In this document: positions 1,351 to 60,372 of the stretch, one piece after another
Layout: every line of letters begins with the position of its first letter
Numbering within the stretch: the first letter of the stretch is position 1
Assembly: GCA_963705105.1 (NCBI GenBank)
Contig: CAVPIW010000014.1
Coordinates: 96,001-160,000, forward strand
DNA from: an uncultured Nitrospiraceae bacterium
Lineage (GTDB): Bacteria > Nitrospirota > Thermodesulfovibrionia > Thermodesulfovibrionales > Dissulfurispiraceae
Direction: 5' to 3'
Length of the DNA stretch: 64,000 bases
Made by a program: the position numbers and the translations under genes
The notes under the pieces: generated by a model
Database searches by the model: none
What the model was told of the DNA's origin: nothing
The model's input: only the letters and a program-made list of their open reading frames with translations

Positions 1351-1884
1351 CCCTTCATCAGCATGAAAAGGCGGGGCGAAGCGCCATGAAACAGTAGACA
1401 ACAGACAGGAACCGGACGAAAAACGCACCGACGGGAAGGCTGATGTGGTGAAAAGCCTTTCCGCTAAGATACCTTGTTCGTCCCCTGACCACCCTTTGCC
1501 GTGTCTGTTGATATCAAAAGCCAGTCATGCAACAGGCGTTGAACACCCTGATATGCACACCCATACGCCCGACCGAATGGCGGGGTGAAGCGCCGAAAAG
1601 CATCGGTGCTGCGAAACCGCTGCCGTCCCGCTGAGTGTATGTAAGCAAAACTGTTGATGATACAGAGGATGAAATCTTCAACAACCAATAATAAATAATC
1701 ATGCTCGCTATCAGCGAGGCGTTGAGGCGCTTTGCCCCGCCTTTCGGCGCATCTGCCAAAATGGTCCTCATCATCGCATTGGAAAGGCTTTGACCCATAT
1801 CTGCATTCCCGGAGGCAGCGTCGCTATCAGCAAGGTATTGAGTTGTCTTGCCCGCTATTCCGGAGGGCTTATGCAACGATGAGG
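1351..1884. mobile_element. Degenerate MITE copy (L3 arm, element A, R1-like arm) with a second MITE (about 1555-1760, L2-R1) nested inside element A
   Basis: AAAAGGCGGGGCGAAGCGCC at the left; ATGCAACGATGAGG right end; element A (1433-1810) interrupted by about 200 bp with its own GGCGGGG/CCCCGCC arms. Confidence 0.8.
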
Positions 1885-1909
1885 TTAGGGTACACGTTGA
1901 AGCGTTGCG

Positions 1910-2827
1910 TCAGAAGGGGACAAAGAGCCGATGCTTTCTGACGAACTCTCTGAAGGTCCGGGCCGCCGCGGATAAGTCCTCATCCCTCGGGCTGACGAGG
2001 TAAATCTTTCTTTTCATCTTCCTGCCTGCGACATCCAGTATGTTGATGGATCCTTCCTTGACGGCCCTGAAGACCGACCATTTCGAAACACAGGAGATGC
2101 CCGTTCCTGCCTGCACCATCTGGACGATTAAATCGGGGCTTCCGAGCACCATGGCGACTGTTATGTCGCGGGCGTCGATTTTCATTGAGTGGAACAGCTT
2201 CTCTATATACTCTCTTGTGCCCGAGCCGGCTTCGGGCATAATGAAGGGCTGTGACAGCAACTGTGCCGGCAAGATGCCTTTTTTTTTCGCCAGCGCGTTG
2301 TCCTCAGAGGATATGATGACAATCTCATCTTCCGAAATTTCGTCGAAGACCAGTCGCGCACTCCTGCCCGCGTCCTCGACGGGTCCCTCGCATATGCCCA
2401 CCTCGATGTCCCCGCCGGTAATCTGCCGAATGATCGCATCCGTATTAGACACGGATAGTTCAATCGCCACATCAGGGTAATCTCTCGAAAAGCCATAGAG
2501 AATCTGGGGAAGGAGAAAGGAGGCGGCCGTCATGCTCGCGCTCGCGCGGAGAGTTCCCCTGAGCCGTTTGAGCAGGCCGTTGAGATCGTCCTCCATTGCG
2601 GCGTATCGGGCGAGAAGGTCCCTTGCGTGCCCGTAGAGAGCCGTTCCCGCGGGAGTCGGCCTGACGGTCTTGCCGGAACGAATGAAGAGCTTGGCGCCGA
2701 TCTCCTCTTCAAGCTTCCTGATGAGGTGGCTCATGGCGGACTGGGTCATAAACTTCTCCTCCGCAGCACGGGAAAAGCTCCCGTGTTCCACAACGAGACA
2801 GAATGCCCGCAGCCGGTGGTCTTCCAT
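1910..2827 (-). CDS. LysR-family transcriptional regulator (CysL/YeiE-like)
   Basis: GSFSRAAEEKFMTQSAMSHLIRKLEEEIG HTH; 305 aa; divergent from the tup genes. Confidence 0.9.
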   Translation of the reverse strand: MEDHRLRAFCLVVEHGSFSRAAEEKFMTQSAMSHLIRKLEEEIGAKLFIRSGKTVRPTPAGTALYGHARDLLARYAAMEDDLNGLLKRLRGTLRASASMTAASFLLPQILYGFSRDYPDVAIELSVSNTDAIIRQITGGDIEVGICEGPVEDAGRSARLVFDEISEDEIVIISSEDNALAKKKGILPAQLLSQPFIMPEAGSGTREYIEKLFHSMKIDARDITVAMVLGSPDLIVQMVQAGTGISCVSKWSVFRAVKEGSINILDVAGRKMKRKIYLVSPRDEDLSAAARTFREFVRKHRLFVPF

Positions 2828-2903
2828 TGTTCAGGCCCCTTTACACCCTCCCTCATTGTAAGGTTCATCTCCAGGCCTGTCAACAGTGCATTCAATGAGA
2901 AGA

Positions 2904-2927
2904 ATTCATGGTGAGCATGAATATAAT
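2904..2927 (+). promoter_or_regulatory. Palindromic operator ATTCATG-N5-CATGAAT overlapping a TATAAT -10 box upstream of tupA1
   Basis: Palindrome 2904-2922 and TATAAT 2922-2927 in the lysR/tup divergent region. Confidence 0.5.
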
Positions 2928-3053
2928 CCATTTGCTTTGTTCCGGGGCTGCATCATAATCTTGAAACATCGCCGTCTGATCGGCGGAGACCGGCTTCTGG
3001 CGATTCTCCGCGAATGCGGCGCCGCTGACATACATGCCACGGAGGGAATAATC

Positions 3054-3833
3054 ATGGCGGATCAAAAAACAAAACTAATCATTGCATCGACAACGAGCAC
3101 GCAAAACTCGGGGCTTTTCGACATCCTGCTTCCGGAGTACGGGAAATCGACGCGATACGGGATCGCCGTGGAAGTGGTAGCGGTCGGAACGGGGAAGGCG
3201 ATCAGGATGGCGAAGAAGGGCCTGGCGGACGTGCTCTTCGTCCATGATCCCTTCCGGGAGGAGAAGTTTGTCTCCGAAGGGTACGGGGTGAACAGGCGGG
3301 AGGTTATGCACAACGAATTCGTCATCATCGGCCCTGAAGACGATCCTGCCTCCGTCGGCGCTGCAAAATCGGCAGTCGAGGCCTTTGAGGATATCGCCGA
3401 CAAAGGAGCGTCATTTGTCTCCCGCAGTGACGACTCGGGGACGAACATACGGGAACTGGACATATGGGACGATACGGGCATCAATCCGAGGGGCAAGGGC
3501 TGGTATTTCGAGGCCGGCGCGAAGATGGGAGACACGCTGCTCATAGCGAACAACAAGCCGGCATACACACTGACAGACATGGGGACCTATCTGAACTACC
3601 AGGACAAGCTGGAGTTGCGGATCCTCTTCCGGGGCGATCCGATCCTCCGGAACCGGTACAGTGTCATAGCCGTCAGCCCCGAGAAATTCCCCGGTATAAG
3701 GTACCGCGAGGCGATGGATTTCATCGCCTTTGTGACGTCCCCGGAAGGCCAGAGGATCATAGGACAATACGCCAAAAACGGCGTGAACCTCTTTTATCCC
3801 GATGCCGTGCCATCGGTAATGAACACACAATAA
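3054..3833 (+). CDS. tupA: TupA-like tungstate-binding protein, copy 1, with no evident signal peptide
   Basis: ASTTSTQNSG, FVSRSDDSGT and YTLTDMGT motifs; RBS GGAGG before ATG 3054. Confidence 0.8.
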   Translation: MADQKTKLIIASTTSTQNSGLFDILLPEYGKSTRYGIAVEVVAVGTGKAIRMAKKGLADVLFVHDPFREEKFVSEGYGVNRREVMHNEFVIIGPEDDPASVGAAKSAVEAFEDIADKGASFVSRSDDSGTNIRELDIWDDTGINPRGKGWYFEAGAKMGDTLLIANNKPAYTLTDMGTYLNYQDKLELRILFRGDPILRNRYSVIAVSPEKFPGIRYREAMDFIAFVTSPEGQRIIGQYAKNGVNLFYPDAVPSVMNTQ

Positions 3834-3846
3834 AAAGGAACCATCA

Positions 3847-4671
3847 ATGAACAGAATCGTTATCATTATCGTTCTCGCATCCGTCATCTTCTGTTATGCT
3901 CCGGCCACATATGGCGCGCCGGCGGCGGAAATTATTCTCGCATCGACGACGAGCACGGAGAACTCGGGATTGTTCGGTCACATCCTGCCCCTCTTCGAGA
4001 AGAAGACGGGGATTAAGGTAAAGGTCGTGGCCCGGGGAACGGGCGCGTCGATCGAGATGGGCAAACGTGGTGACGCCGACGCAGTGTTCGTGCACGCAAA
4101 AGAACTTGAAATGAAGGCCGTCGAAGAGGGATTTTTCCTCAGCCGCCATGATGTGATGTACAACGATTTCGTCATCATCGCCCCGCCCGATGACCCGTCC
4201 AAAGTGAAGGGCCTGAAAAGCGCGGCGGAGGGCTTCAAGAGGATATCGGCAGGAACGGCGCCCTTCGTCTCGCGAGGGGACAAGTCAGGGACCCATACGA
4301 AGGAACTGGAGCTCTGGAAAAAGGCCGGCGTTGATCCGAAGGGAAATCCCTGGTACCTGGAAGTCGGTCAGGGCATGGAGAAGGCCCAGCGAATCGCGAA
4401 CGAGAAACGCGCCTACTGTCTCACTGACCGCGGCACATGGCTCGCGACGAAGGACAAGGACAAGCTGGAGATGATCATCGTCCTGGAGGGTGACCCCGTT
4501 CTCTTTAACCAGTACGGCGTGATGGCGGTGAATCCGGAGAAGCACAAACATGTGAAGTATAAAGAGGCGAAGGAGTTCGTGAACTGGATCATCTCGAAGG
4601 AGGGCCAGCAGGCCATAGCGTCCTTCAAGGACAAACTCGGCAACCAGCTCTTCTATCCAAATGCAAAATAG
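3847..4671 (+). CDS. tupA: Tungstate ABC transporter substrate-binding protein, copy 2, with signal peptide
   Basis: Hydrophobic N-terminus; ASTTSTENSG, FVSRGDKSGTH, LTDRGT. Confidence 0.9.
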   Translation: MNRIVIIIVLASVIFCYAPATYGAPAAEIILASTTSTENSGLFGHILPLFEKKTGIKVKVVARGTGASIEMGKRGDADAVFVHAKELEMKAVEEGFFLSRHDVMYNDFVIIAPPDDPSKVKGLKSAAEGFKRISAGTAPFVSRGDKSGTHTKELELWKKAGVDPKGNPWYLEVGQGMEKAQRIANEKRAYCLTDRGTWLATKDKDKLEMIIVLEGDPVLFNQYGVMAVNPEKHKHVKYKEAKEFVNWIISKEGQQAIASFKDKLGNQLFYPNAK

Positions 4672-4672
4672 A

Positions 4673-4936
4673 CCTTATCGTTGCATACGCCCTCCGGGAA
4701 GGCGGGGCAAAGGCGCCGAAAAGCCTCGGTGCTGCGAAACCTTTGCCTTCCCATGAAGACAGTGTCAGGCAGACGGTCGATGACACAAAGGATGGAATGG
4801 AATCGTGTAGGGGCCGTTCCCCGAACGGCCCGACATCAATAAAGCGGTCTGCTCGGGGAGCAGACCCTACAATGATCAATGTCGCGATCAGCGAGGCCTT
4901 GAGGCGCTTTGTCCCGCCTTTCCTGCAACTACGGGA
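4673..4936 (+). mobile_element. MITE copy (L2-R1) containing a REP doublet; TSD TAGA
   Basis: CCTTATCGTTGCA...TGCAACTACGGGA flanked by TAGA at 4669-4672 and 4937-4940. Confidence 0.9.
4807..4870. repeat. Inverted GTAG-type REP doublet (REPIN-like)
   Basis: GTAGGGGCCGTTCCCCGAACGGCCC facing GGTCTGCTCGGGGAGCAGACCCTAC. Confidence 0.8.
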
Positions 4937-5002
4937 TAGATTTATTTTTTTCCACGCGAAGTCGCAAAGAGCGCAAAGAAAGAACACAAAGGTGTCAGTG
5001 AC

Positions 5003-5710
5003 GTGAGCTCGATTTTCGAAGGCATCGGCAGGGCAGCCTCGCTCATCGTCAATCTGGACGATGAGTTGATGCAGATCATCCTCCTGTCCTTGCGCGTATC
5101 CGGCTCTGCACTTGTGATCGCAACGGTCCTGGCGATTCCGACGGCGGGACTTCTCGGGTTGAAAAGATTCCGGGGCCGTGGGGCGCTCATCAGTATATTG
5201 AACACGTTTATGGGGCTCCCTCCGGTCGTGGTGGGGCTTTTCGTCTATCTCCTGTTGTCCCGGAGCGGCCCTCTCGGTTTTCTGGCGCTGCTCTACAGCC
5301 CCACGGCCATGATCATCGCCCAGATCATCCTCTCTTTCCCCATCGTGGCGTCGCTCTGCCATACCGCCATCGTCAGTGTCGATCCCATCGTGAAACAGGC
5401 ATCGATGGCGCTTGGGGCGACGCCGTTTCAGGTCTCTCTGACCGTGATCAACGAGGCCCGCTACGGGATTATGTCGGCGGTCATCGCAGGATTCGGCAGG
5501 GTGACCGCCGAGGTAGGCGCCGTACTCATGGTCGGCGGCAACATCGCTGGTTTCACGAGGGTCATGACGACGACTATAGCGCTTGAGACCGACAAGGGCA
5601 ACTTCGAGCTCGCCCTCGCGCTCGGCATAATCCTTCTTACCCTCTCTCTGGCGATCAACCTCGTCCTGCGTTTCATACAGAAAAAGGGAACCCTGAGGGC
5701 TGAAGCATGA
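5003..5710 (+). CDS. tupB: Tungstate ABC transporter permease
   Basis: NTFMGLPPVVVGL, GPLG, EVGAVLMVGGNIAGFTRVMTT. Confidence 0.9.
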   Translation: MSSIFEGIGRAASLIVNLDDELMQIILLSLRVSGSALVIATVLAIPTAGLLGLKRFRGRGALISILNTFMGLPPVVVGLFVYLLLSRSGPLGFLALLYSPTAMIIAQIILSFPIVASLCHTAIVSVDPIVKQASMALGATPFQVSLTVINEARYGIMSAVIAGFGRVTAEVGAVLMVGGNIAGFTRVMTTTIALETDKGNFELALALGIILLTLSLAINLVLRFIQKKGTLRAEA

Positions 5711-6357
5711 ACCTCCGGCTGGAAGCTGAAGGGCTTTGCAAGAGCTACAACGGAAAACCCGTGCTTGCCGACTGCTCCTTTGTCCTCCGGGAAGGAAGGA
5801 CATACGCTTTGATGGGGCCGAACGGGTGCGGCAAGTCGACGCTCTTCCGCATCTGCGCCCTCATCGAGGAGCCGGACAGTGGCCGTGTGCGATATCTTTC
5901 AGGGGACGAGACTCTGGGTCACGACATGTCCCTGAGAAGAAAGATAACGCTTGTGCTCCCCAAAATCGGCGTCTTCAACACATCGGTCTGCAAGAACGTA
6001 GCATACGGTCTCAGGGTCCGCGGTGTCACGAGGGGAGAGACGGCCGGGCGTGTGCAAAAGGCCCTCGAGTTTGTGCGGCTCACCCACAAGAAGGACCAGA
6101 ACGCACTGACCCTTTCGAGCGGTGAGACCCAGCGGCTCGGCATTGCCAGGGCGATCGCGTTCGAACCTTCGGTGCTCTTCCTCGACGAACCGACAGCCTT
6201 CGTCGACGAAAAAAGCAAGGTGCTGATCGAAGAGATCATTCATGGAATCAGGAGGGCCGGCAACGCCCTGGTGGTCATCACCACCCATAACAGGGACCAG
6301 GCGGAGCGGCTCTCGGACTCGGTCCTGATGATGGCCGGCGGCAGGGTCCTCGCCTGA
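5707..6357 (+). CDS. tupC: Tungstate ABC transporter ATPase
   Basis: Walker A GPNGCGKST, LSSGE signature, LFLDEPT. Confidence 0.85.
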   Translation: MNLRLEAEGLCKSYNGKPVLADCSFVLREGRTYALMGPNGCGKSTLFRICALIEEPDSGRVRYLSGDETLGHDMSLRRKITLVLPKIGVFNTSVCKNVAYGLRVRGVTRGETAGRVQKALEFVRLTHKKDQNALTLSSGETQRLGIARAIAFEPSVLFLDEPTAFVDEKSKVLIEEIIHGIRRAGNALVVITTHNRDQAERLSDSVLMMAGGRVLA

Positions 6358-10981: not shown

Positions 10982-11253
10982 CCTTATCGTTGCAATAGGT
11001 CTCCGTAAAGGCGGGGTGTATGCGCCGAAAACCTTGCTGCGGCGACACCAGTATCAAAAGGAAAGATGAACTGTAAGCCAATGGTCGATGATACAAAGAG
11101 TAGAATCCTGTAGGGGCCGTTCCCCGAACGGCCCGACATCGATGACGCTATTTCAGGCCGACGGCTGAAAAAGGTGAACTTTTTACTGACACTCACACTG
11201 TCACTGACACTGTATTTGAGGCGCTTCGCCCCGCCCTCTTATGCACTGGAAGA
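10982..11253 (+). mobile_element. MITE copy (L1, REP, R2); right end degenerate
   Basis: CCTTATCGTTGCA start; REP at about 11110-11134; ACTGAC/ACTCAC tract; CGCCCCGCC..ATGCAC end; no TSD match. Confidence 0.88.
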
Positions 11254-11291
11254 TTGTCACCCTTCGGGAAGCAACGGGGTATCAAAACAGA

Positions 11292-12322: not shown

Positions 12323-12513
12323 CCTTCCCGTTGCGTGAAAAGGCGGGACAAAGTGCCTCAAAGCCTTGCTAATAGCGAGCATGATCATTTGAAATGGGAC
12401 ATTGGGTATTTCACCCTCTGTGTCATCAACCGTCGGCCTTACATGATCCGCATGGGAAGGCAAAGGTTTCGCAGCACCAAGGCTTTTCGGCATCTTCGCC
12501 CCGCCTTTCCGGA
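12323..12513 (-). mobile_element. MITE copy (L2-R1), long end truncated
   Basis: CCTTCCCGTTGCG end; interior matches the 4673 copy without the REP doublet. Confidence 0.85.
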
Positions 12514-12532
12514 TGTCCATCACTAATAATAC

Positions 12533-12568
12533 AAAAAGGGGGCGCCTTGATGAAACCCGCGCCCCCTT
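12533..12568 (-). terminator. Probable intrinsic terminator after the YeiH gene
   Basis: AAGGGGGCGC/GCGCCCCCTT stem followed by a T-run on the minus strand. Confidence 0.55.
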
Positions 12569-18321: not shown

Positions 18322-18383
18322 CTCTTCAGTTGCGTGGTGAAAAGGTGATTCCGCCTTTCCGGAAGACCTTTGCAGCAATAGGG
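18322..18383 (-). mobile_element. 62-bp mini-MITE; TSD TCAA
   Basis: CTCTTCAGTTGCG...CCGCCTTTCCGG...TGCAGCAATAGGG flanked by TCAA. Confidence 0.7.
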
Positions 18384-18463: not shown

Positions 18464-20601
18464 ATGAACAGCGAATGGAAGACCGGTGTGTTCGTATTGT
18501 TGTGTCTCTTGTTTTCCTTGTCGCCCGCTTCTTCATCATGCGCCGACCCTCTCGACAGTTGGTATTCGAGGAACCCTCTCCCCAGAGGAAACGATCTTCG
18601 GGCCGTCGCTTACGGCAACAACACATTTGTTGCCGTCGGATGTCCCGGACCGATCCTGACGTCACCTGACGGCGTCACATGGACCATCAGGCCGACGGCT
18701 ACCGACCATTGTCTCTCCGGCGTCACTTACGGCAACAACATGTTTGTTGCAGTGGGAAGGGACAACGCAGAAGGTTATGATGTCATCCTCACATCTCACG
18801 ACGGAATCAAATGGACCCGCCGGCCCACAGGGAACCGGCATATTCTAAATGGAATCACCTATGGCAATGGTACATTCGTGGCCGTCGGTGAGGAAAACAA
18901 CGGCTTGGGTCATGTTGGCCCTGGCGTAATCATGACGTCACCCGACGGCGTCACATGGACCATCAGGTCTGATGGGGTTGCTCATGGACTCCGCGGAGTC
19001 ACTTTTGGCAATGGTGCCTTCGTGGCCGTTGGCTTGTTCTACTCGATCTTTACTTCACACGATGGTGTCATCTGGACAAGCAGATCTTCAGGATTGAGCG
19101 GAAGCAGTGAGTTTCACGATATCGCTTACGGAAACGCCACTTTTGTGGCTATAAGTGATTCGGCTATCATGACGTCGGCCGACGGCATTATCTGGACGAA
19201 GTCTCCTGGAACTAACCTCGTTACACTCCGTGGCGTCACATATGGCAACAATGGATTTGTAGCGGTGGGTGATCAGATCACGGCAGCAGCTCGCCGCGTA
19301 ATAATGACAATGACATCGACTGATGGGGTCACCTGGACCAGCCAAACCTTGGGCGATGCTGATGCTGTTGGTCTTTATATAAGTCTTTCCGCAATCACTT
19401 ACGGCAATGGCATATTCGTGGCCGTTGGACCCGGCACAATTCTGACGTCGCCTGATGGCATTTCATGGAACAACAGGTCTTTGGGGGTTGCCCCCTTGCT
19501 TAAAGGAATTACCTGCGGCAACGAACCTATTCCTGGCTGTTGGAGATTCCGGCACAATCCTCACTTCGCCCGACGGCATCAACTGGGCACTCAGACCGTC
19601 GGGAACGTCTCATCACCTGAACGCTGTGACCTATGGCAATAACCTGTTCGTGGTTGTCGGAAATTCCGGTACTATTCTGATATCGTCTAACGGCATTGAC
19701 TGGACAATTATTGCGTCTTCGGTCCCTCCTTCCCAGCCTCACGCAGTGACCTATGGGAACAACCTATTCGTAATCGTTGGAGACTTCGGTACTATTTTCA
19801 CGTCCCCTGACGGTGTCAGCTGGACCCGGAGATTGTCGGGAACGTCTCACAACCTGAATGCTGTGACACATGGCAACAACCTATTCGTGGTTGTCGGAGA
19901 TTCCGGTACTATTCTCACGTCATCCGACGGCATCAGCTGGACGACCAGATCCTCATGGGATCGCAATGCCGCTCTCCGGTGCCACTTTCGGCAACGGTCT
20001 GTTCCTCGCCATTCAAGGTGGCATAATACTGACCTCATCTGACGGCATCGTCTGGGATAGGCATTTCCCCGGCGTTTTTGGTGTAACAGCCCATCTGGAC
20101 GTGACATACGGCAGCGGCACATTTGTCGCGGTTGGTACAGAAGCGCCCTTCATGCTTCCGCACTATCAGATCTTGACCTCCACCGACGGGATTGCCTGGA
20201 CAAGCAGGGCTATCGGGGATGGCGTACTTAGCGGAATTGCGTATGGGAACGGAACATTCGTGACGGTGGGATGGAACGGCACAATTAAGCAGTCAGGTAG
20301 TCTTTGCTCCGCTACCCTTGATCCGAACCTGTCCATACATGTTCCCAATCTTATTTTCGCCGGAACTCCCTTCCGGGCCGATTTGGCCTACGTGCCGGAC
20401 ACCCTTACCTTTGACCTGGTCGATTACGGGCTCCTTACGGACACGTCGGCTTATGAAGGATGTACACCGGCTACACTGTCAGACACCTTTCTTTTGCATA
20501 TCCCAAACATCATGTTCAGAGGGGCCTCTTACCGGCTCGATCTGCAATACACTCAACAGGGGACTTCCTTCGTCTACACCAATCTGGGCGTCAATTACTG
20601 A
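18464..20601 (+). CDS. Secreted tandem-repeat (beta-propeller-like) protein split by two +1 frameshifts (about 19523 and 19956)
   Basis: Signal peptide; about 13 repeats of TYGNxxFVAVG...ILTSxDGxxW continuing across three frames; duplicated LHIPN C-terminal module. Confidence 0.75.
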
Positions 20602-26583: not shown

Positions 26584-26608
26584 TGTCACTCCCGCTTGCC
26601 GGGAGTCC
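26584..26608 (+). repeat. REP-like hairpin (TGTCA-type)
   Basis: TGTCACTCCCGCTTGCCGGGAGTCC; single copy in the window. Confidence 0.4.
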
Positions 26609-26620
26609 TTCCCAAAGAAA

Positions 26621-26901
26621 CCTTATCGTTGCAATACACTCCCGGGAAAGGCGGGGCTGGGGTGAATGCGCCGAAAACCTTGCTGCGGCGACACCTATAT
26701 CAAAACGACAGATGAACTATACGCCAATGGTCGATGACACAAAGAGTGGAATCCTGTAGGGGCCGTTCCCCGAACGGCCCGACATCGATGAAGCTATTTC
26801 AGGCCGACGGCTGAAAGAGGTGAACTTTTTGCTGACACTCACACTGTCACTGACACTGTATTTCAGAGCGCTTCGCCCCGCCTTTTTATGCAACTGAAAG
26901 G
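26621..26901 (+). mobile_element. MITE copy (L1, REP, R2); TSD GAAA
   Basis: CCTTATCGTTGCA / TGCAACTGAAAGG flanked by GAAA. Confidence 0.92.
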
Positions 26902-27039
26902 GAAAGATTCCGGACAAGCCGAAGGACATTACGATCGCATCTTTCAATATATCTCCGGAGTCATTGGTGTGGCCGGCAACCGACAGCCGTGGAATAAAGC
27001 ATCGGGTCGACGATCGCCTGTCCACAATCCGGGAGGACC

Positions 27040-27666
27040 TTACGGGCACGGTCCCGGGGCATGACCGGCATTGTAAACGATACCCCCCGCCTCGACATAT
27101 GCGCGGAGCACTGAAACGGCTTCATCGCGAAGCACGTCGCGGACGACATCGATCCGCCGCGATCTGAGTTCCGCAGCCCAGTCGTGCAGTTTCGGTCCCT
27201 CGTCGAATCCTATTGCCCTTGCATCCTCGTCCCTGGCCCCGCAGATGAGACGGCTCACGCCCGCCCATGGGATAGCGCCGAAGCACATGGCGCAGGGTTC
27301 CGCCGAGGAGACGAGGTCAAACCGGAGACTGCCGCCGTCCCCGATGTCGTACCGGCCCAGTATCTTCTGGGCAAGGGACAGGGCGATGATCTCGGCATGA
27401 AGGATGGAGCAGTTCGATGACACGACGAGGTTCACACCCGGCGCAATGAGCCGACCCTCGCTATCGAACACCCCGGCACCGAAGGGCCCTCCCGTTCCCC
27501 GCTCAACGTTATGCCGGGCCATGTCGATGACGAGGCGCATGCGGTCCTCGACGGCCGGAAATACAGGGCTGCACGTGGACAGGAACTCCCCCATCCATCC
27601 CGGCAGCCCTATGCTTACCGTCGGGAAAGACACCATTCTTTTCATCGGTATACCATACTTGTCCAA
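27040..27666 (-). CDS. Nucleoside/guanine deaminase family protein (start uncertain)
   Basis: GGPFGA, HAE, EPCAMC. Confidence 0.88.
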   Translation of the reverse strand: MDKYGIPMKRMVSFPTVSIGLPGWMGEFLSTCSPVFPAVEDRMRLVIDMARHNVERGTGGPFGAGVFDSEGRLIAPGVNLVVSSNCSILHAEIIALSLAQKILGRYDIGDGGSLRFDLVSSAEPCAMCFGAIPWAGVSRLICGARDEDARAIGFDEGPKLHDWAAELRSRRIDVVRDVLRDEAVSVLRAYVEAGGIVYNAGHAPGPCP

Positions 27667-27973
27667 AATAGCTTACAGCCAGACCTTGTAAACGAGGATA
27701 GGGTGTGGTTTCTGAAGCATAATTCACGGTTGCCTTGCACGAAAAGACGGTGCAAAACGCTCTAAAAACAGTGTCAGTGTCAGTGTGAGTGTCCGTAAAA
27801 GGTTAATTTTGTTTGATCGTTGGTCTGCAATGGTCTGTACGGGAAGGCAGAGGTTTCGCAGCACCGATGCTTTTCGGCGCATTCGCCCCGTCTTTCCTGA
27901 GATCTCATTGCGGTGATAAGGGTTTAGTATGCGAAGGAATCATGCCCTATCCTCGATTCACATTATTTTGGAC
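27660..27973. mobile_element. Palindromic element E carrying one MITE (27727-27921, L2-R2, minus orientation)
   Basis: GTCCAAAATA..CGAGGATAGGG / CCCTATCCTCG..TATTTTGGAC arms; near-identical to the corresponding parts of 47167-47698. Confidence 0.8.
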
Positions 27974-27987
27974 GCCGAAACATGCCG

Positions 27988-31806: not shown

Positions 31807-34742
<2,936 letters not shown>

Positions 34743-34772
34743 CTTCCTTGTTTCATTTTACATTGGTCCTCC

Positions 34773-34940
34773 GGGAAGGCTGATATGGTTCAAAGCCTTT
34801 CCAATGCGATGATGAGACATCTCAAGGTGTTCAGCGCCTGTTGCCTGACGGTCTTCTGGTATCGATCGACACGGCAAGGTGGGGTCTGGGGATGAATAAG
34901 GTATCTTAGAGGAAAGGCTTTTCACCACATCAGCCTTCCC
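34773..34940 (-). repeat. Stand-alone element A (168 bp, about 30-bp imperfect terminal IRs)
   Basis: GGGAAGGCTGATATGGTTCAAAGCCTTTCC / GGAAAGGCTTTTCACCACATCAGCCTTCCC; no MITE TIRs around it. Confidence 0.85.
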
Positions 34941-35009
34941 GCCCGCGTGTTCGTGGCCTTGTTCTGACTGTCGACCGGGAACTGAAGACTGAAGGTGTGG
35001 GTATGAGTT

Positions 35010-39397: not shown

Positions 39398-39605
39398 CCT
39401 TGAAATTGCATGGAAAGGCGGTGCGAAACGCCTCAAAGCCTTGCTGAAGGCGACGATGATCATTGTCAGGTTCGTCTCTCAGGGTCCCATTCTTCGTGTC
39501 ACCGACCATCGCTTGTAACGTCTTCCGCGACGATACAGGTGTCGCCGCATCAAGGTTTTCGGCGCATACACCCCGCCTTTCCAGAGGACGCATGCAACGA
39601 TAGTG
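39398..39605 (-). mobile_element. MITE copy (L1-R1); TSD ACAA/ACAG
   Basis: CCTTGAAATTGCA / TGCAACGATAGTG ends; long internal inverted repeat. Confidence 0.88.
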
Positions 39606-42820: not shown

Positions 42821-43580
42821 GTCTATCATGGTCGAAAGACAGGGGCCCGTCTGCACGATCACCTTGAACAGGGACAGGGGGATGAACCTGCTCGGCACGG
42901 AGTCGCTCCAGATGCTGTCTCATACCTTCGCAACGGCGGCGGAAGACCGGCAGGTGCGTGCCGTTGTCATCACGGGGCGCGGAAACTTCAGCGCCGGTGC
43001 CGATATCAGGGAAATGAAGGACATGAGCGTGGAGCAGGCCGGTGCCTTCGCACGCCTCGGTCAGGGCGTGTTCAACATGATCGAACGCATGGATAAGGCG
43101 GTCATAGCGGCCGTCACCGGATACGCCCTCGGGGGAGGATGTGAGCTTGCCCTCGCCTGCGACATCCGCATATGCGACGAGAGCGCGCGGTTCGGCCAGA
43201 TCGAGCTGAGCCTCGGTCTCATTCCCGGTTTCGGCGGAACACAGCGACTCGCCAGGATTGTGGGCCATGGCAGGGCCATGGAAATGATGCTGACGGGACG
43301 CATGGTCGGAGCACAGGAGGCAGGATCTATCGGCCTTGTCGGCACGGTGGTCCCCCTGGGGGATGCGCTGAAGGCAGCCATGGAAATCGCGCAGACGATC
43401 GCGGGGAAAAGCCCCGTCGGCGTGGCCATGGTCAAGAGAATCGCAAGAGAATCCTCTCCGCTCGAGAAGGGGCTGGCAATCGAGGCCGAGTCATTCATGA
43501 AGTGCTTCGGATACGAGGACCACAGGGAAGGCATCCGTGCATTTCTCGAAAAGAGACCGCCCGTCTTCAGGGGGGAGTAA
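42807..43580 (+). CDS. crt: Enoyl-CoA hydratase (crotonase)
   Basis: FSAGADI, ALGGGCELA, GQIE..LGLIPGFGGTQRL. Confidence 0.9.
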   Translation: MSTGESIMVERQGPVCTITLNRDRGMNLLGTESLQMLSHTFATAAEDRQVRAVVITGRGNFSAGADIREMKDMSVEQAGAFARLGQGVFNMIERMDKAVIAAVTGYALGGGCELALACDIRICDESARFGQIELSLGLIPGFGGTQRLARIVGHGRAMEMMLTGRMVGAQEAGSIGLVGTVVPLGDALKAAMEIAQTIAGKSPVGVAMVKRIARESSPLEKGLAIEAESFMKCFGYEDHREGIRAFLEKRPPVFRGE

Positions 43581-43581: not shown

Positions 43582-43901
43582 GCTTATCGTCATAGGAAAG
43601 TAGGGGCGAAGCGCCTAAAAGCCTTCTCATTGCAACGCTGACTCCGGGAAGGCAGATACGGTCAAGGCCTTTCCAATGCGATGATGAGACTTCTCCGGCG
43701 TTAAGCGCCGGTTGCCTGACGGGCTCTTGTCATCGGACGACACGGCAAAGGGTGGTCTGGTGATGTATAGGGTATCTTAGCGGAAAGGCTTTTACCACAT
43801 CAGCCTTCCCGTCGGTGTGTTTATCGTCCGGTTTCCGTCTTTGCCTGCTGTCTATTGTCGCCTTCGCCCCGCCTTTTCGGACGGCGTAGTCAACGATGAG
43901 G
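43582..43901 (-). mobile_element. MITE copy (L3, element A 43646-43810, R1-like); TSD TAAA/TGAA
   Basis: GCTTATCGTCATA / GTCAACGATGAGG ends. Confidence 0.82.
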
Positions 43902-45135: not shown

Positions 45136-45279
45136 CCAATGTCCATGGGCCCATCCTCCTGTCGGTTGCACACTTCGGTCAGGGCGAAGCGTCTCAAAGA
45201 AATGCCTCAATGACCTGATGACGTCCATTGAGGCATCTTCGCTCCGTCTTTCCGAAGGCGATGCGTGGAGATGTTCTGT

Positions 45280-47112: not shown

Positions 47113-47166
47113 CATCCACCTCCTGAGGAATTCCACTATTCTTATTCTTCTATATCTTACCACCCC

Positions 47167-47698
47167 TGTCCAAAATATTTTGCAGCCGGACTTTGAAAAC
47201 GAGGATAGGGTGTGGTTTCTGAAGCAAAATTCACGGTTGCCTTGTACGAAAAGACGGTGCAAAACGCTCCGAAAAACAGTGTCAGTGTCAGTGTGAGTGT
47301 CCGTAAAAGGTTAATTTTGTTTGATCGTTGGTCTGCAATGGTCTGTACGGGAAGGCAGAGGTTTCGCAGCACCGATGCTTTTCGGCGCATTCGCCCGGTC
47401 TTTCCTGAGATCTCATTGCAGTGATAAGGGTTTACCTTATCGTTGCAATGCGCGCCCGGGAAAGGCGGGGCGTATGCGCCGAAAACCTTGCTGCGGCGAC
47501 ACCTGTATCAAAACGAAAGATGAATTATACGCTAATGGTCGATGACACAAAGAGTGAAATCCTGAAACACGAAGATGACGAGGCGTATCGTCGCCTTCAG
47601 CAAGGCTTTGAGGCGTTTCGCCCCGCCTTTCAATGAAACTATAGGGTTTATTTTGCGAAGAAAACATGCCCTATCCTCGTATTGCGTTATTTTGGACA
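47167..47698. mobile_element. Element E carrying two MITEs: 47234-47429 (L2-R2) and 47435-47646 (L1-R1, TSD TTTA)
   Basis: TTTA at 47431-47434 and 47647-47650; single TTTA at the equivalent site of the 27660 copy. Confidence 0.9.
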
Positions 47699-47764
47699 CC
47701 TGGATCTTACATCACTCCCGTCCGCTATAACTTGCAGGCAATCCTTTCGAACGATGTCGCACGT

Positions 47765-49864
47765 CTACTCCGCCAGTATCCATATCGGGTTCGTCATGCA
47801 CCGGAAGAGCGCCTCGCCCGTTTTCGGGTCAATACGCGAAGAACCCTCCATGCGAAGGTACGACGGACCGGACGGCCATTTCGTGAATGCAAATGTCGTT
47901 GATCCGTTGAATGCGCCGGCCTGCCTGCAAAGCACCGGGAGACCTACGACGCCGGATAGGTCCTCTTCTCCCTCAGCCGTTCCCCGAAGGAGTCGCATCT
48001 CCCCGATGCGGCCGAACTCCGCCGTGCTGCACCATTCGATGAGCAGCTCTAACCTTTCCCCTGCTTTCAGACTGAGGGTGTCTCCAAACCTGCAAACCCC
48101 GTCCTGTCCCTTTTTCCTGATCGAGAAGAGAACGACAGGCCCGTCGGTCAGCAGAGTTCGGCCTGTTTTCAAGGCATCGAGCAGCATCGGCTCCTTAAGG
48201 CCCTCGCGGTTCTTTCCTGGCAGGTGTGCAAGGGTACGCACCTTGCCGAAGGCGTTGTCGTAAAGGTAATGGATCAGGAAAGCCGGGTGGGGACGAAAAG
48301 AGCAGTTGAAGTCCATGTGCGCATCCGAACCGGCGAGGATGAAGTACTTTGTCAGTTCCCTCGTCCTTTCATAGTCCCGCAACGGCGGAAGCAGCAATCT
48401 TTCGACCCAGTGATTGAGCACACCCTCTTCGAGTTCCCCCGCCCAGGGAGACCGTCTCTTACATTTCTTCATTATATCAAATGGATCGAGATATTCTCTG
48501 TCAATGGATGATTCGGTTTTGCACCCAAAGAGGACCTTTTCATTGAACACCTGAAGACCCCGGAAGACTTCCTTATACCGGGGCTTGGAAGCAACGGCGT
48601 AATCCTCATCCTTCCAGACATACCCCTCCGAGGAGGGGTGCGCGGCGTAGACAAAGCCCCCCCTCTCACGGCAACCTTCGAGGAGATGTTCGAGCACCTC
48701 TTCCAGGGGAAAGGTCCCGAATCCGGCGGGGTGAGTGTCCTCGATGAACGGGTTGTTGAAAGACAGGAGATGCAGGCCCAGGAGATATTGCCTGACCGTG
48801 ACCTCCTCGGCGGCAACGAGCAGGACATCAGGGTATCGGTCATTCGTCCCGCTGACGGCCTTTTGGTATGAGAGCCATCTGTTGCCCACATCCTCTTCTT
48901 CAGGCGTCTTCGGGTGACTCAGACAATAGGAATGATCCGTGACGGTCACCCAGGAAAGGCCGGTGGCCCGCGCCACCTCGGCCGTCATGGAGAGGGGCCC
49001 CCCATATTCGTAGGGATTGTCGGTGAAATCGGAGTGGTAGTGCGTATCCCCGTAATACCACTCATCGACGATGGGCAGGTTGCTGTCCGGCACGAGGGTG
49101 TGAAGGACAAAGTGCCTCCGTCTTCCCCAGCCGAGGATGCCCGTTGTGAAATCGATGACAACGGCATACTTTACATACCTCGTCTTGCCATAACCGGGAT
49201 AGTTACCCTGGATAACAGAGAGTTTCGCCCTGTCGATCAGGATCACCCGGTACCAGGGATCGGTCCTGACGGTTTCATGTCTTCTGCCGTCATCGAACCT
49301 CAGGACGGCCGGTCTTCCGTCCTCTTCGACATCCCGTCCGTCACTGTCATAAACCCTGATGATGCCGCCGGCCGGTATCGGTTCGGGCATGATGTCCGGA
49401 TCAGCCCCGTAGGCATGCAGAGAGACAGACGCGAATCTGACCGATTCCGCCTCGACATCCTTGAGATACACGATGACGGGAAGATATTCAGAGTTTTTTT
49501 CCAGCCGGTATGGCGCGTCGACGACGAGGTCCATGGCAGAGGTATTCGGCTGCTTCGTCGCCTTCCTGCGCAGAAACTCGTATTCGAATGAGTCTTCTCT
49601 CAGTTCAATCCGGGGCTCTTTTATAATCGCCTCCCCGCTGTGCGCATCCCGCACGGTGAGGGCATAAACCCCCTTGGGCATCTGATCAAACTCGATGTAG
49701 CACAGGCCGTCCCGCTCCTTCAGCAGACTGCTGTTTTCCGCAAAAAACTGAATGATCCTGTTCGTGCCCTTCCTCCGGAGCTCAATGACCACGGGTTTCC
49801 AGTAGCGACCGATTTCCTTCCTGCTGACCCCGAACAGGAGCCGTATCACGCCGTTCTTTCCCAT
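47765..49864 (-). CDS. Large protein with PHP-like (CehA/McbA-type) metallohydrolase domain
   Basis: YGDTHYHS, VTDH, AAHP, GSDAH, GRTLLTDGP, TNPIW. Confidence 0.7.
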   Translation of the reverse strand: MGKNGVIRLLFGVSRKEIGRYWKPVVIELRRKGTNRIIQFFAENSSLLKERDGLCYIEFDQMPKGVYALTVRDAHSGEAIIKEPRIELREDSFEYEFLRRKATKQPNTSAMDLVVDAPYRLEKNSEYLPVIVYLKDVEAESVRFASVSLHAYGADPDIMPEPIPAGGIIRVYDSDGRDVEEDGRPAVLRFDDGRRHETVRTDPWYRVILIDRAKLSVIQGNYPGYGKTRYVKYAVVIDFTTGILGWGRRRHFVLHTLVPDSNLPIVDEWYYGDTHYHSDFTDNPYEYGGPLSMTAEVARATGLSWVTVTDHSYCLSHPKTPEEEDVGNRWLSYQKAVSGTNDRYPDVLLVAAEEVTVRQYLLGLHLLSFNNPFIEDTHPAGFGTFPLEEVLEHLLEGCRERGGFVYAAHPSSEGYVWKDEDYAVASKPRYKEVFRGLQVFNEKVLFGCKTESSIDREYLDPFDIMKKCKRRSPWAGELEEGVLNHWVERLLLPPLRDYERTRELTKYFILAGSDAHMDFNCSFRPHPAFLIHYLYDNAFGKVRTLAHLPGKNREGLKEPMLLDALKTGRTLLTDGPVVLFSIRKKGQDGVCRFGDTLSLKAGERLELLIEWCSTAEFGRIGEMRLLRGTAEGEEDLSGVVGLPVLCRQAGAFNGSTTFAFTKWPSGPSYLRMEGSSRIDPKTGEALFRCMTNPIWILAE

Positions 49865-50072: not shown

Positions 50073-50261
50073 CCGTATCGTTGCATAGGCCCGACAGAAA
50101 GGCGGGGTGTAGGCGTCGAAAACCTTGATGCGGCGACACCATAAACGTCACAGAAGATAAGGTTTCAAGCTGATGTCTGAAAAAGTGATCCCTTTACTGA
50201 CACTCACACTGTCACTGACACTGTCTTTCAGAGGCGCTTCGCCCCGCATCTTCACGCAAGG
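50073..50261 (+). mobile_element. MITE copy (L1-R2); TSD TTTA
   Basis: CCGTATCGTTGCA start; shortened right end; flanked by TTTA. Confidence 0.85.
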
Positions 50262-53530: not shown

Positions 53531-53726
53531 CCTTATCGTTGCAATACACTCCCGGGAAAGGCGGGGCGTATGCGCCGAAAACCTTGCTGCGGCGACTCCG
53601 TAACCCTCACAGAAGACGACCTTTCAAGCCTATGGTCGAAAAAGTGAGCTTTATTACTGACACTCACACTGACACGGACACTGTTTTTCAGAGCGCTTCG
53701 CCCCGCCTTTCAATGCAACGACAACA
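53531..53726 (+). mobile_element. MITE copy (L1-R2); TSD TTGA
   Basis: CCTTATCGTTGCA / TGCAACGACAACA flanked by TTGA. Confidence 0.92.
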
Positions 53727-58306: not shown

Positions 58307-58322
58307 TGTTCCACGTGGAACA
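58307..58322. promoter_or_regulatory. parS site
   Basis: TGTTCCACGTGGAACA. Confidence 0.85.
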
Positions 58323-58358
58323 TCCATCCCCCAAAGCGGACAGTCCATGATGAATCAA

Positions 58359-58724
58359 CCTTATCGTTGCATACGCTTTCCGGAAAGGCGGGGCGTATGC
58401 GCCACTGAACAGTAGACAATAGGCAGTAATCAGTAGTCGGAAAAAGGCCGCGACCAACTGACGGGGAGGCTGATGTGGTGAAAAACCTTTCCGCTAAGAT
58501 ACCTTATCTGTCCCAGATCACCCTTTGCCGTGTCTGTCGATACCAAATGCCCGTGAGGCAACGGGCATTGAACGCCTTGAGATGTCTCATCATCGCATTG
58601 GAAAGGCTTTGAACCATATCTGCCTTCCCGGAGGAAGCAGTAGTGACACCGACACTGACACTCACACTGTCACTGACACTGTATTTCAGAGCGCTTCGCC
58701 CCGCCTTTTCATGCAACGACAGGG
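58359..58724 (+). mobile_element. MITE copy (L3, element A 58463-58629, R2); TSD TCAA
   Basis: CCTTATCGTTGCA / TGCAACGACAGGG flanked by TCAA. Confidence 0.93.
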
Positions 58725-58972
58725 TCAAGTGCCGAGTTGATGAAGTTGAATGGGTTGAAGAATCTGACTGAGGTGAATACCGACGCTGTCATGAACACTA
58801 TTTACAATAGATTGACTCCATGCACTCACATCATTACGAAAACAGACGCTGCCGCTTTTCTTTGCGCTCTTTGCGGTTCAGCGCGAGACGGCCTTGAGAT
58901 ATTTTCCTTTCACCGGCATGACCATTGTTGTGCCGAGGCGGTTCGTGCATTCTTCCATATAAAAAGTGATGC

Positions 58973-59056
58973 CTAATTCATGAAAGCGATAGCGAAGGAC
59001 GCCATGGCACCGATGAAACACACTGCACTGAGCGAGTATGAAATGATGGTTTTCAT
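58973..59056 (-). CDS. 27-aa hydrophobic peptide
   Basis: RBS AGAGGAGG; MKTIISYSLSAVCFIGAMASFAIAFMN; upstream sigma54 motif. Confidence 0.6.
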   Translation of the reverse strand: MKTIISYSLSAVCFIGAMASFAIAFMN

Positions 59057-59119
59057 TGTGTCCTCCTCTTTGTCGGCCCGTTGTCCATGCCCATCGTCAT
59101 GGCTGATGTCATCAATAAA

Positions 59120-59135
59120 TGCAATGACGATGCCA
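59120..59135 (-). promoter_or_regulatory. Sigma54 -24/-12 promoter
   Basis: TGGCATCGTCATTGCA on the minus strand. Confidence 0.7.
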
Positions 59136-59276
59136 CCTTTTATCTCTTTGATTTTATTGTGTTTCAAGATTGGCCTTTTGGTATGGATTCGCCGATACTA
59201 TGGAATATTTCCATAGAGCATGGGTTTGCACCCCCTGTCATGGGCAAGTTTCTTGGCTATCCTTCACGTGAATAAA

Positions 59277-59643
59277 CCTTATCGTTGCATAGGCTTTCCG
59301 GAAAGGCGGGGCGTATGCGCCACTGAACAGTAGACAATAGGCAGTAATCAGTAGTCGGAAAAAGGCCGCGACCAACTGATGGGGAGGCTGATGTGGTGAA
59401 AAACCTTTCCGCTAAGATACCTTATCTGTCCCCAGACCACCCTTTGCCGTGTCTGTCGATACCAAATGCCCGTGAGGCAACGGGCATTGAACGCCTTGAG
59501 ATGTCTCATCATCGCATTGGAAAGGCTTTGAACCATATCTGCCTTCCCGGAGGAAGCAGTAGTGACACCGACACTGACACTCACACTGTCACTGACACTG
59601 TATTTCAGAGCGCTTCGCCCCGCCTTTTCATGCAACTGGAAGG
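59277..59643 (+). mobile_element. MITE copy (L3, element A 59381-59548, R2); TSD TAAA
   Basis: CCTTATCGTTGCA / TGCAACTGGAAGG flanked by TAAA; nearly identical to the 58359 copy. Confidence 0.93.
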
Positions 59644-59685
59644 TAAACTGTACATGAGACCGCAGCTCTTATGGTAAAATAACAT

Positions 59686-60291
59686 ATGCGTATTGCAAAG
59701 GCTGAACCGCCCACCTATCAGGACCCCCGAAAACGCTCTTCCCCTGACATGTCTCAGGGAGACGCCCCCCGGGGCGTCAGGGAATCGTTTGACTCGGTGC
59801 TGCGGAAGTTGTCGGAAAGCGAAAACGGGGACGACAGGAAGTTCGCCTCGTCTCTCCGCAAGGTGCTGGATCACGAAGGGATTCGCTACGTATCGAACGA
59901 TGCCGGCAAGGGTGAAGGACGGTATGGTATTCTCGGGTCTACGGCGAAGCAATTCGGTTACGGCGGCAGCATGCAGGACATATCGGCTGAACAGGCCGTC
60001 GCCATCTACCGGAAACTCTGGGACAAGTCCGGAGCCGCTTCATTATCCGACCCCTTGGCCATTGCCCACTTCGACACATACGTGAATTCGCCCTCGGCCG
60101 CAGCAAGATTCCTCAAGCAATCCGGCGGGGATGCGTCCGAATACCTGGAGCTGCGTGAGGTCCGGTACAGGCGGCTGGCCACAACCAAGCCCGCGCGGTT
60201 CTCGAAATACCTCAAAGGATGGCTCAACCGCCTCGCGGCCCTCAGGCAGACCGTCTTCGCGGGCGGTCCTGACAAGCCCCGGTCCGGTTAG
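59686..60291 (+). CDS. Glycosyl hydrolase 108-like (lysozyme-like) protein
   Basis: VLDHEG, RYGI, A.AIYRKLW, HFDTYVNS, KYLKGWLNRL. Confidence 0.75.
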   Translation: MRIAKAEPPTYQDPRKRSSPDMSQGDAPRGVRESFDSVLRKLSESENGDDRKFASSLRKVLDHEGIRYVSNDAGKGEGRYGILGSTAKQFGYGGSMQDISAEQAVAIYRKLWDKSGAASLSDPLAIAHFDTYVNSPSAAARFLKQSGGDASEYLELREVRYRRLATTKPARFSKYLKGWLNRLAALRQTVFAGGPDKPRSG

Positions 60292-60319
60292 CCGGACCCC
60301 CGGTTCTCCACTCATTTCA

Positions 60320-60372
60320 CCTTATCGTTGCAACACACTCTCAGGAAAGGCGGGGTGTATGCAACTACGGGG
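60320..60372 (+). mobile_element. 53-bp mini-MITE; TSD TTCA
   Basis: CCTTATCGTTGCA...AAAGGCGGGGTGTATGCAACTACGGGG flanked by TTCA. Confidence 0.9.

What the first reader, a model, noticed from the sequence alone, without database searches (positions are those of the whole stretch)
1351..60372. Dense MITE family with 13-bp TIRs and 4-bp TNNA-biased target duplications
Seen: about 19 intergenic copies (about 4 kb, roughly 6% of the window) with ends CC-N5-GTTGCA...TGCAAC-N5-GG and a sub-terminal AAAGGCGGGGCG inverted repeat. The spacer between TIR and sub-terminal repeat is longer at one end than the other. Exact 4-bp flanking duplications: TAGA (4673), TCAA (18322), GTAA (20998), AAAA (22649), GAAA (26621), TTTA (47435), TTTA (50073), TTGA (53531), TCAA (58359), TAAA (59277), TTCA (60320). 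Two more match 3 of 4 bases (39398, 43582). Several targets overlap stop codons. Knowledge: TIR plus TSD implies a DDE transposase, and CC termini with 4-5 bp duplications fit the IS1380 family. Inference: an unannotated non-autonomous family mobilised in trans, since no transposase is in the window.
Basis: partly seen in the sequence, partly recalled or inferred. Interest (0 to 1): 0.85.

Follow-up and report, generated by a model that had tools for sequence, protein, structure and literature searches.

The report
IS1380-type miniature transposon in Nitrospirota
Hundreds of copies of a roughly 200-base non-coding jumping element fill about 3-4% of this sediment bacterium's genome; its ends and 4-base insertion scars match one group of IS1380 insertion sequences found in related bacteria, which likely supplied the enzyme that moved it, so it is a well-supported but ordinary kind of miniature transposon.

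Summary
Confirmed. All 11 claimed 4-bp duplications are exact; the window holds 18 two-ended copies plus fragments. Genome-wide, 128 of 253 paired copies have exact 4-bp duplications against 13.9±3.5 by permutation, target T-W-W-A; paralogous empty sites carry one 4-mer. Load is 2.8-4.0%. No IS1380 gene or remnant was found in this assembly, and a seemingly autonomous 2.3-kb copy is an IS1634 nested inside a MITE. One IS1380 clade from 10 of 390 class genomes has the MITE's terminal repeats, the same left/right asymmetry and TWWA-type 4-bp duplications; 17 other IS1380 elements and 11 resident IS types do not. Related ~205-bp MITEs occur in at least three families of the class. The host is Dissulfurispiraceae-like, Nitrospirota. 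The scan saw this family before in this genome as an orphan MITE (e1-2511816, e1-2511826) and IS1380-type MITEs in other genomes. Verdict: new member of a known kind; partner inferred, not shown.

The parts
1351..1884 (-). Composite MITE copy (534 bp) with a nested inner copy; flanks TTGA/TTAG; left 4-mer holds the stop codon of ORF 862-1350
4673..4936 (+). MITE copy, 264 bp, exact duplication TAGA, overlapping the stop codon of ORF 3847-4671
10982..11254 (+). MITE copy, 273 bp, decayed right end, no duplication
12323..12542 (-). MITE copy with damaged long-spacer end, no duplication
18322..18383 (-). Minimal 62-bp derivative, exact duplication TCAA
20998..21273 (-). MITE copy, 276 bp, exact duplication GTAA
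22649..22712 (+). Minimal 64-bp derivative, exact duplication AAAA
26455..26543 (+). Fragment: long-spacer end only
26621..26901 (+). MITE copy, 281 bp, exact duplication GAAA; inserted in a hairpin repeat whose other copies show one GAAA
27727..27922 (-). Old MITE copy (196 bp, TTCA/TTTA) carried inside a second repeat family
34742..34976 (.). Internal fragment of a long subfamily, no ends
39398..39605 (-). MITE copy, 208 bp, ACAA/ACAG (3 of 4)
43582..43901 (-). MITE copy, 320 bp, TAAA/TGAA (3 of 4); left 4-mer holds the stop codon of ORF ending at 43580
45158..45253 (+). Decayed fragment
47234..47430 (-). Old MITE copy (197 bp, TTCA/TTTA) inside the second repeat family
47435..47646 (+). Canonical 212-bp copy, exact duplication TTTA; 98% identical twin at another locus; empty paralogous sites show one TTTA; predicted long hairpin (z -4.7)
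50073..50261 (+). MITE copy, 189 bp, shortened right TIR, exact duplication TTTA
53531..53726 (+). MITE copy, 196 bp (second right-arm type), exact duplication TTGA
58359..58724 (+). Long copy, 366 bp, exact duplication TCAA
59277..59643 (+). Long copy, 367 bp, 97-98% identical to the 58359 copy, exact duplication TAAA
60320..60372 (+). Minimal 53-bp derivative, exact duplication TTCA

Best explanation
[quoted passage not shown] Shown: TIRs, 4-bp duplications, empty sites, recent spread, arm-swapped subfamilies, matching ends in the IS1380 clade. Inferred: the IS1380-clade transposase binds the two 13-14-nt TIRs, cuts the target with a 4-nt stagger and repair makes the duplication; the IS was lost recently, or lies in an assembly gap; recombination between copies at shared internal blocks made the mosaic subfamilies, and deletion between the two arms made the 50-70-bp minimal forms; selection removed insertions in genes and spared those at stop codons.
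For: Duplications: 128 of 253 exact versus 13.9±3.5. Empty sites: 28 copies sit in other repeats; 20 of 28 best paralogues align without a gap at the junction and 14 of those 20 show the identical 4-mer once. Recent spread: 42 of 43 pairs at 97% or more identity have unrelated flanks; 30 of the 37 copies in them keep an exact duplication; duplications decay with age, 51 of 65 versus 5 of 30. Partner: P0001 scores 240.7 bits on NF033539, cut-off 180. With ends found without the TIR motif (CC termini required), 3 of 3 clade elements score +2.5 to +21.7 bits on the MITE end matrices and 17 of 17 other IS1380 elements score -3.1 to -27.9. Nine clade copies (six elements): exact 4-bp duplication in 5 of 9, at least 3 of 4 in 8 of 9, nearly all T-W-W-A-like; in 5 of 5 elements with unlike ends the left end fits the short-spacer matrix better and the right end the long-spacer matrix. 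One clade left end matches a MITE arm in register at 25 of 39 positions beyond the TIR (shuffles mean 16.5, max 22 of 60). G360 holds both a clade IS and related MITEs; its IS left end and a MITE of G358 (same family) share a one-base change at TIR position 10. Eleven resident IS types score at most 2.9 bits.
Against: No clade gene or remnant in G000, which is 99.4% complete and resolves other multi-copy IS, although copies 99% identical at unrelated sites exist. Only 1 (G360) of the genomes with related MITEs (G000, G004, G124, G125, G126, G358, G359, G360) had a clade IS at E 1e-60. No IS was found with the sub-terminal repeat or the MITE interior. The 25-of-39 match is the best of 80 comparisons (next best 20). 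Six of the nine clade copies had their ends picked with the TIR motif or a matrix of clade ends, so only the three are independent of it. No orthologous empty site was obtained. In G124, G126 and G358 the two TIR types sit on the opposite spacers (by eye), which is unexplained.
Confidence: 0.8

Rival explanations
1. The MITE is moved by a transposase that is resident in this genome (IS1634, IS1182, IS4, ISH3/IS701-like or other), not by IS1380.
For: The genome holds at least 15 DDE_Tnp_1 matches and no IS1380; copies spread recently. A single-copy IS1182-like element at C14:214737 has a 4-bp flank repeat TCAA and a GTTGC-like core, by eye. An IS1634 lies inside a MITE at C10:240792-243138 with outer TTAT/TTAT.
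Against: Ends of 11 resident IS types score at most 2.9 bits against 9-22 for most clade ends (the IS1182-like element was not among the 11 and was compared by eye only: different first bases, core one base out of register). The IS1634 has its own ends 339 and 56 bp inside the MITE, and four other copies lack MITE ends; its duplications look 5 bp long.
Confidence: 0.08
2. The transposase is no longer needed: copies now spread or are homogenised by recombination, gene conversion or as passengers of other repeats, and the duplications are old scars.
For: At least 21 genome hits span a second repeat family that carries an old copy as a passenger. Subfamilies are mosaics of at least four left arms and two right arms. 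No partner gene found.
Against: The most similar copies have unrelated flanks and the freshest duplications; conversion alone would not give fresh TIR-flush 4-bp duplications in several host repeats.
Confidence: 0.07
3. The repeat is a domesticated structured RNA or regulatory element (terminator, RNase III site) and its sequence is kept by host selection.
For: The 212-nt copy folds into a long hairpin, -80.7 kcal/mol, z -4.7; the inner arms are the best-conserved parts, 0.98-0.99; 5 of 18 consensus pairs show two-sided changes across lineages; copies pile up at stop codons.
Against: Covariation term only -0.08; inverted arms pair by construction. No orientation bias to flanking genes (52 same, 53 opposite), equal density in convergent, divergent and tandem gaps (2.5-2.6 per 10 kb). 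No Rfam match in the window; no promoter- or terminator-like site in 47200-47800.
Confidence: 0.05

Closest known systems
Type II prokaryotic MITEs (Correia/CREE, ERIC, RUP, QMITE1/2, Chunjie; Minnick 2024, PMC10969869, parts 1-2 of 6 read plus passages)
   Same: Under 500 bp, TIRs, target duplications that decay with age, intergenic, hairpin-forming, nested clusters, similarity to the partner IS confined mostly to the TIRs.
   Different: Partner here is an IS1380 clade (the review's main text has 0 occurrences of IS1380). GC-rich rather than AT-rich. Load 2.8-4.0% against 'up to 2%' quoted in PMC9330008 and PMC3281130 (passages). Asymmetric sub-terminal inverted repeat.
IS1380 family insertion sequences (NF033539, PF13701; IS1247, ISEcp1, ISPme1 in PMC3281130 and PMC9330008, passages); closest is the unnamed clade of P0001
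   Same: CC termini, 13-14-nt TIR consensus, left/right asymmetry, 4-bp T-W-W-A-like duplication.
   Different: No transposase; about 200 bp instead of 1.52-1.66 kb; has a sub-terminal repeat and about 65-bp imperfect arms that the IS ends lack; IS1247 is listed with a 5-bp duplication (PMC3281130 Table 2, passage).
Pneumococcal BOX elements (Delihas 2011, PMC3184786, passages)
   Same: Non-autonomous repeat thought to be moved by an IS transposase in trans; found in nested clusters (PMC10969869). Modular build of BOX is recalled.
   Different: Unrelated sequence and host; partner named there is ISStso1, whose family I did not check.
piggyBac transposons (IS1380 used as outgroup in PMC10813416, passages)
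   Same: 4-bp TTAA-like target; short TIR plus asymmetrically spaced sub-terminal inverted repeat (piggyBac end layout is recalled, not read).
   Different: No PF13843 match over cut-off in the genome; target is degenerate; the clade IS ends lack the sub-terminal repeat, so the likeness is probably not inherited.

Membership tests
Prokaryotic MITE | Short (under 500 bp), multi-copy | tested here: met
   253 paired copies of 60-400 bp, mode 211-213; 850 ends
Prokaryotic MITE | Terminal inverted repeats | tested here: met
   13-14-nt TIRs at both ends
Prokaryotic MITE | Target-site duplication | tested here: met
   128 of 253 exact 4-bp vs 13.9±3.5; 14 of 20 gap-free paralogous empty sites show the 4-mer once
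Prokaryotic MITE | No transposase of its own; mostly intergenic | tested here: met
   Too short for a transposase; only 2 of 253 copies are spanned by a frame open 80 codons on both sides. A crude caller covered 51 of 253 by more than half; these were not checked one by one
Prokaryotic MITE | Mobilised in trans by an autonomous IS with like ends | tested here: inconclusive
   Matching IS clade found in other genomes, none in this assembly; movement not assayed
IS1380 family (features recalled from ISfinder tables, not read here) | Single DDE transposase ORF matching NF033539/PF13701 | tested here: not met
   None in the element or the genome; met by the candidate partner P0001
IS1380 family (features recalled from ISfinder tables, not read here) | CC termini | tested here: met
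   C at positions 1-2 in 89-94% of ends
IS1380 family (features recalled from ISfinder tables, not read here) | 4-5-bp target duplication | tested here: met
   4 bp; clade IS 4 bp in 5 of 9 copies
IS1380 family (features recalled from ISfinder tables, not read here) | TIRs shared with a family member | tested here: met
   3 of 3 clade elements positive, 17 of 17 other IS1380 negative on MITE end matrices
IS1380 family (features recalled from ISfinder tables, not read here) | Length about 1.5-2 kb | tested here: not met
   About 200 bp; filed as an IS1380-type MITE, not as an IS1380 member
IS1634-derived MITE | Ends and duplication length shared with resident IS1634 | tested here: not met
   End scores -10.5 to 2.9 bits; IS1634 nested inside a copy with its own ends
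piggyBac-like element | piggyBac transposase (PF13843) | tested here: not met
   No match over cut-off
Known structured RNA family | Rfam match at gathering score | tested here: not met
   0 matches in the window
Prokaryotic MITE | Transposition shown experimentally | not testable with these tools
   Needs a trap or mating-out assay

The most novel reading that the evidence does not exclude
One old MITE lineage has persisted across at least three families and two orders of Thermodesulfovibrionia with a conserved length near 205 bp, living off transient visits of an IS1380 clade; it evolved its own asymmetric sub-terminal repeats and symmetric inner arms, absent from the IS, that make it a better transposase substrate than the IS itself (a piggyBac-like end layout reached by a parasite of a parasite), and it renews itself by swapping arms between subfamilies.
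Probability: 0.3. Interest if true: 0.55.

Novelty: new member of a known kind. Interest (0 to 1): 0.36.

Why it matters
It gives an orphan MITE family a named candidate partner and a ready test pair: intact IS1380-clade transposase genes and a 53-212-bp substrate series with and without inner arms. That would test whether sub-terminal repeats raise transposition by an IS1380 enzyme, a family related to piggyBac whose end requirements are little studied (own knowledge). The load (2.8-4.0%) is above the 2% quoted in two papers, and related elements cross genus and family lines, whereas a RefSeq census reports 97.4% of MITE clusters within genera (10.1101/2024.01.18.576219, abstract and passages). 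An IS1380-MITE link was not found in print in searches (listings; passages of six of the listed papers), but this scan has noted such MITEs in many other genomes, so the kind is common.

Tried and rejected
Long TIR pairs as autonomous elements: 19 pairs over 600 bp were read; 18 are mis-paired ends around ordinary genes and one (C10:240792-243138) is an IS1634 nested in a MITE. IS1380 in the own genome: none by PF13701, NF033539, tblastn with P0001 (best E 4.9) or a clade HMM on six frames. Exact-pattern scans: 8 viral and 14 GTDB loci were all chance hits; the long-spacer pattern gave 0 metagenome hits; the short-spacer pattern gave 12, of which 1 (L049) is a true copy, 88.8% identical, at a locus that is also filled in G000, so no empty site. 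An exact pattern found nothing in 60 relatives; allowing 2 mismatches found the related families. Contigs of 4 runs from 4 studies cover the window and hold many MITE ends with other flanks, but none of the 15 joints listed (173 more not shown) is a clean skip of one copy; one run may be the source sample; inconclusive. No RNA holder listed. Clade IS in plasmids: none at E 1e-50; in viral contigs one relative at 49% without matching ends. Left ends of the four G171 IS copies were not located. Co-orientation of neighbours: 130 of 236, p 0.13; link to gene strand 123 of 253; to GC skew 107 of 253, p 0.017, weak and one of several tests. In-frame gene fusions: 2 of 253, neither with a duplication; length+4 is a multiple of 3 in 118 of 253, driven by the 212-bp mode. 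Class-wide BLAST with the window copy hit 3 of 389 other genomes, only G004 convincingly; at most two candidates per genome were scored. The Chloroflexota label of e1-2511816 is rejected: a window dGTPase is 98% identical to a protein named Dissulfurispiraceae and every named hit is Nitrospirota (one gene). Two reviews on IS families were not held.
Full report
Setting. The window is G000:C14:96001-160000 of a 4.23-Mb, 19-contig assembly, 99.4% complete. A window dGTPase is 98% identical to a protein named Dissulfurispiraceae bacterium, and all named hits are Nitrospirota, so the host is a Thermodesulfovibrionales-type bacterium by one gene. Runs that hold the stretch are mostly sediment metagenomes.

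Observation. Eighteen two-ended copies (4,278 bp) lie in the window; 11 of 18 have exact 4-bp duplications at the coordinates and with the 4-mers given, 4 match 3 of 4, and 3 match worse. Genome-wide, an end scan gives 850 ends against 5 in a shuffled genome, with spacers of 4 nt (361) or 13-14 nt (409). Of 289 adjacent end pairs, I kept the 253 under 480 bp that join one long-spacer and one short-spacer end; 128 have an exact 4-bp duplication against 13.9±3.5 when flanks are permuted, with 5, 5 and 0 at 3, 5 and 6 bp, and the target is T-W-W-A. The footprint is 119 kb (2.8%) with 157 plain copies as queries and 168 kb (4.0%) with all copies, which pulls in nested repeats.

Insertion is shown without relatives. 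Twenty-eight copies sit inside other repeats; for 20 the best paralogue aligns without a gap across the junction, and 14 of those 20 carry the identical 4-mer once, including window copy 47435; copy 26621 shows the same. Forty-two of 43 pairs at 97% or more identity have unrelated flanks, up to 99.6% identity, and duplications are kept in 51 of 65 young copies against 5 of 30 old ones. Orthologous empty sites were not obtained.

Anatomy. The main form is 211-213 bp (104 copies within 80% of one centre): TIR, spacer, sub-terminal repeat and a further imperfect arm, about 65 bp in all at each end, so that a transcript is predicted to fold as one long hairpin (z -4.7). The inner arms are better conserved (0.98-0.99) than the terminal 20 nt (0.80-0.91), which partly agrees with e1-2511826. 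Subfamilies are mosaics: left arm types combine with two right arm types (108, 71, 35, 3, 2, 8, 5 copies), and five of these seven combinations include copies with exact duplications, so recombinants likely went on transposing. Minimal 53-64-bp forms keep exact duplications. Copies show no bias for gap type or gene direction but overlap stop codons in 26 of 128 cases against 10.4 expected (crude gene calls); selection against promoter insertions could give this as well as targeting.

Search for the partner. No IS1380 gene or remnant was found in the assembly. The one long TIR pair with a transposase and an outer duplication is an IS1634 (387 bits) inserted into a MITE, with its own ends. Eleven resident IS types score at most 2.9 bits on the MITE end matrices. 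In the class, PF13701 hits 116 of 390 genomes. Of 54 loci given to an end finder that required only CC termini and mutual similarity, 20 passed its filter: the 3 clade elements score +2.5 to +21.7 bits and the 17 others -3.1 to -27.9. Across nine clade copies of six elements (1,518-1,655 bp), 5 have exact 4-bp duplications and 8 match at least 3 of 4, nearly all T-W-W-A-like; in all five elements with unlike ends, the left end fits the short-spacer end and the right end the long-spacer end (six of the nine were located with the motif or a clade matrix). The G120 left end also matches one MITE arm at 25 of 39 positions beyond the TIR, above 60 shuffles (max 22), but as the best of 80 comparisons. 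The IS ends lack the sub-terminal repeat.

Relatives. A two-mismatch pattern matched 56 of 390 class genomes, mostly once and often by chance, against 361 places in G000. Read-out of the multi-hit genomes gave related elements of 203-236 bp with the same layout: G004 (same family), G124 and G126 (another family; 4-bp duplications TTAA, TTTA, TCGA, TTTA; 30 and 13 BLAST matches), G358-G360 (another order; TTAA). They align end to end at 59% mean column identity. BLAST links G000 to G004 (E 3.5e-6) and G126 to G360 (E 5.7e-6) but not G000 to G124, so one common origin is likely but not shown. The two TIR types are swapped relative to the spacers in G124, G126 and G358 (by eye), which I cannot explain. 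Only G360 among these genomes had a clade IS; fragmented assemblies often lose IS copies.

Mechanism. Most likely (0.8) an IS1380-clade DDE transposase acted in trans on the two TIRs, inserting at T-W-W-A with a 4-nt stagger; the IS has since been lost or is unassembled. The end match, duplications and empty sites are shown; binding, catalysis and the fate of the IS are inferred. Rivals are a resident transposase (0.08), spread without a transposase (0.07; true for the passenger copies in the second repeat family) and a host-selected RNA (0.05; covariation term -0.08; no Rfam hit).

Comparison and novelty. It meets the MITE criteria of Minnick 2024 (PMC10969869, parts 1-2 of 6 and passages) as a type II element. 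It works like an IS1380 derivative but is not an IS1380 member, since it has no transposase; the family's defining features are recalled, as two reviews were not held. Searches and passages of PMC3184786, PMC10813416, PMC9330008, PMC3281130, PMC3542288 and 10.1101/2024.01.18.576219 showed no IS1380-derived MITE and none in this class; ISfinder and the preprint's sequence supplements were not seen and may hold it. The scan reported this family twice in this genome as an orphan (one shares words with my copy) and has 404 notes with the words IS1380 and MITE in at least 271 genomes (unchecked). Leads from those notes (co-orientation, in-frame insertion) did not hold here. Verdict: real, well supported, a new member of a known kind; the partner clade and the cross-family spread are what this report adds. 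Interest 0.36.

Noticed in passing
window ~27655-27976 and ~47161-47703: A second repeat family of about 320 bp, with CA...TG-type ends that resemble by eye the ends of the genome's IS4 (C12:145183-146456) and a longer flank duplication (about 7-11 bp by eye), carries an old copy of the MITE inside it; 21 genome hits span it. The 47-kb copy was hit again by the fresh MITE 47435-47646.
   Followed up: partly
G000:C10:240792-243138 (L007): A 1,953-bp IS1634 is inserted inside a MITE copy, giving a false 'autonomous element' with outer TTAT/TTAT; another IS1634 copy abuts a MITE end at C6:934050.
   Followed up: yes
window ~26585-26930: A third, REP-like hairpin repeat hosts the 26621 copy; 19 blast hits span its empty form. 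Possibly the hairpin repeat targeted by the IS110/IS1111 elements in earlier notes e1-7898245 and e1-7898248 (not checked).
   Followed up: partly
window 18464-20601: A protein with about 11 tandem ~40-residue repeats (BNR/beta-propeller-like by recall) appears split over two overlapping-frame ORFs, 18464-19642 and one running to 20601; similar repeat genes occur at C6:1058669.
   Followed up: no
G000:C14:214737-216275: Single IS1182-like element with 4-bp TCAA flanks, next to an IS21-like end and in a sequence resembling an integron attC site (by eye).
   Followed up: partly
G000:C3 and C1: Contigs C3 (9 kb, 67% GC) and C1 (5 kb, 45% GC) hold no MITE ends and differ in GC from the rest (56-58%); possible contamination or mobile DNA.
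   Followed up: no
L074, L075, L104 versus window copies: The two TIR types sit on opposite spacers in G124/G126/G358 compared with G000/G004 although the interiors align collinearly; unexplained.
   Followed up: partly
window 3847-6357: A MITE copy splits a tungstate/molybdate-type ABC transporter operon (label from sequence recall) exactly at the stop codon of the binding-protein gene.
   Followed up: no
G000 whole genome: Rich IS load: IS256 (18 repeat intervals), three IS3-like types, IS481, ISL3, IS110, IS4, ISH3/IS701-like and several IS1634 (family labels from sequence recall except where an HMM is cited).
   Followed up: partly
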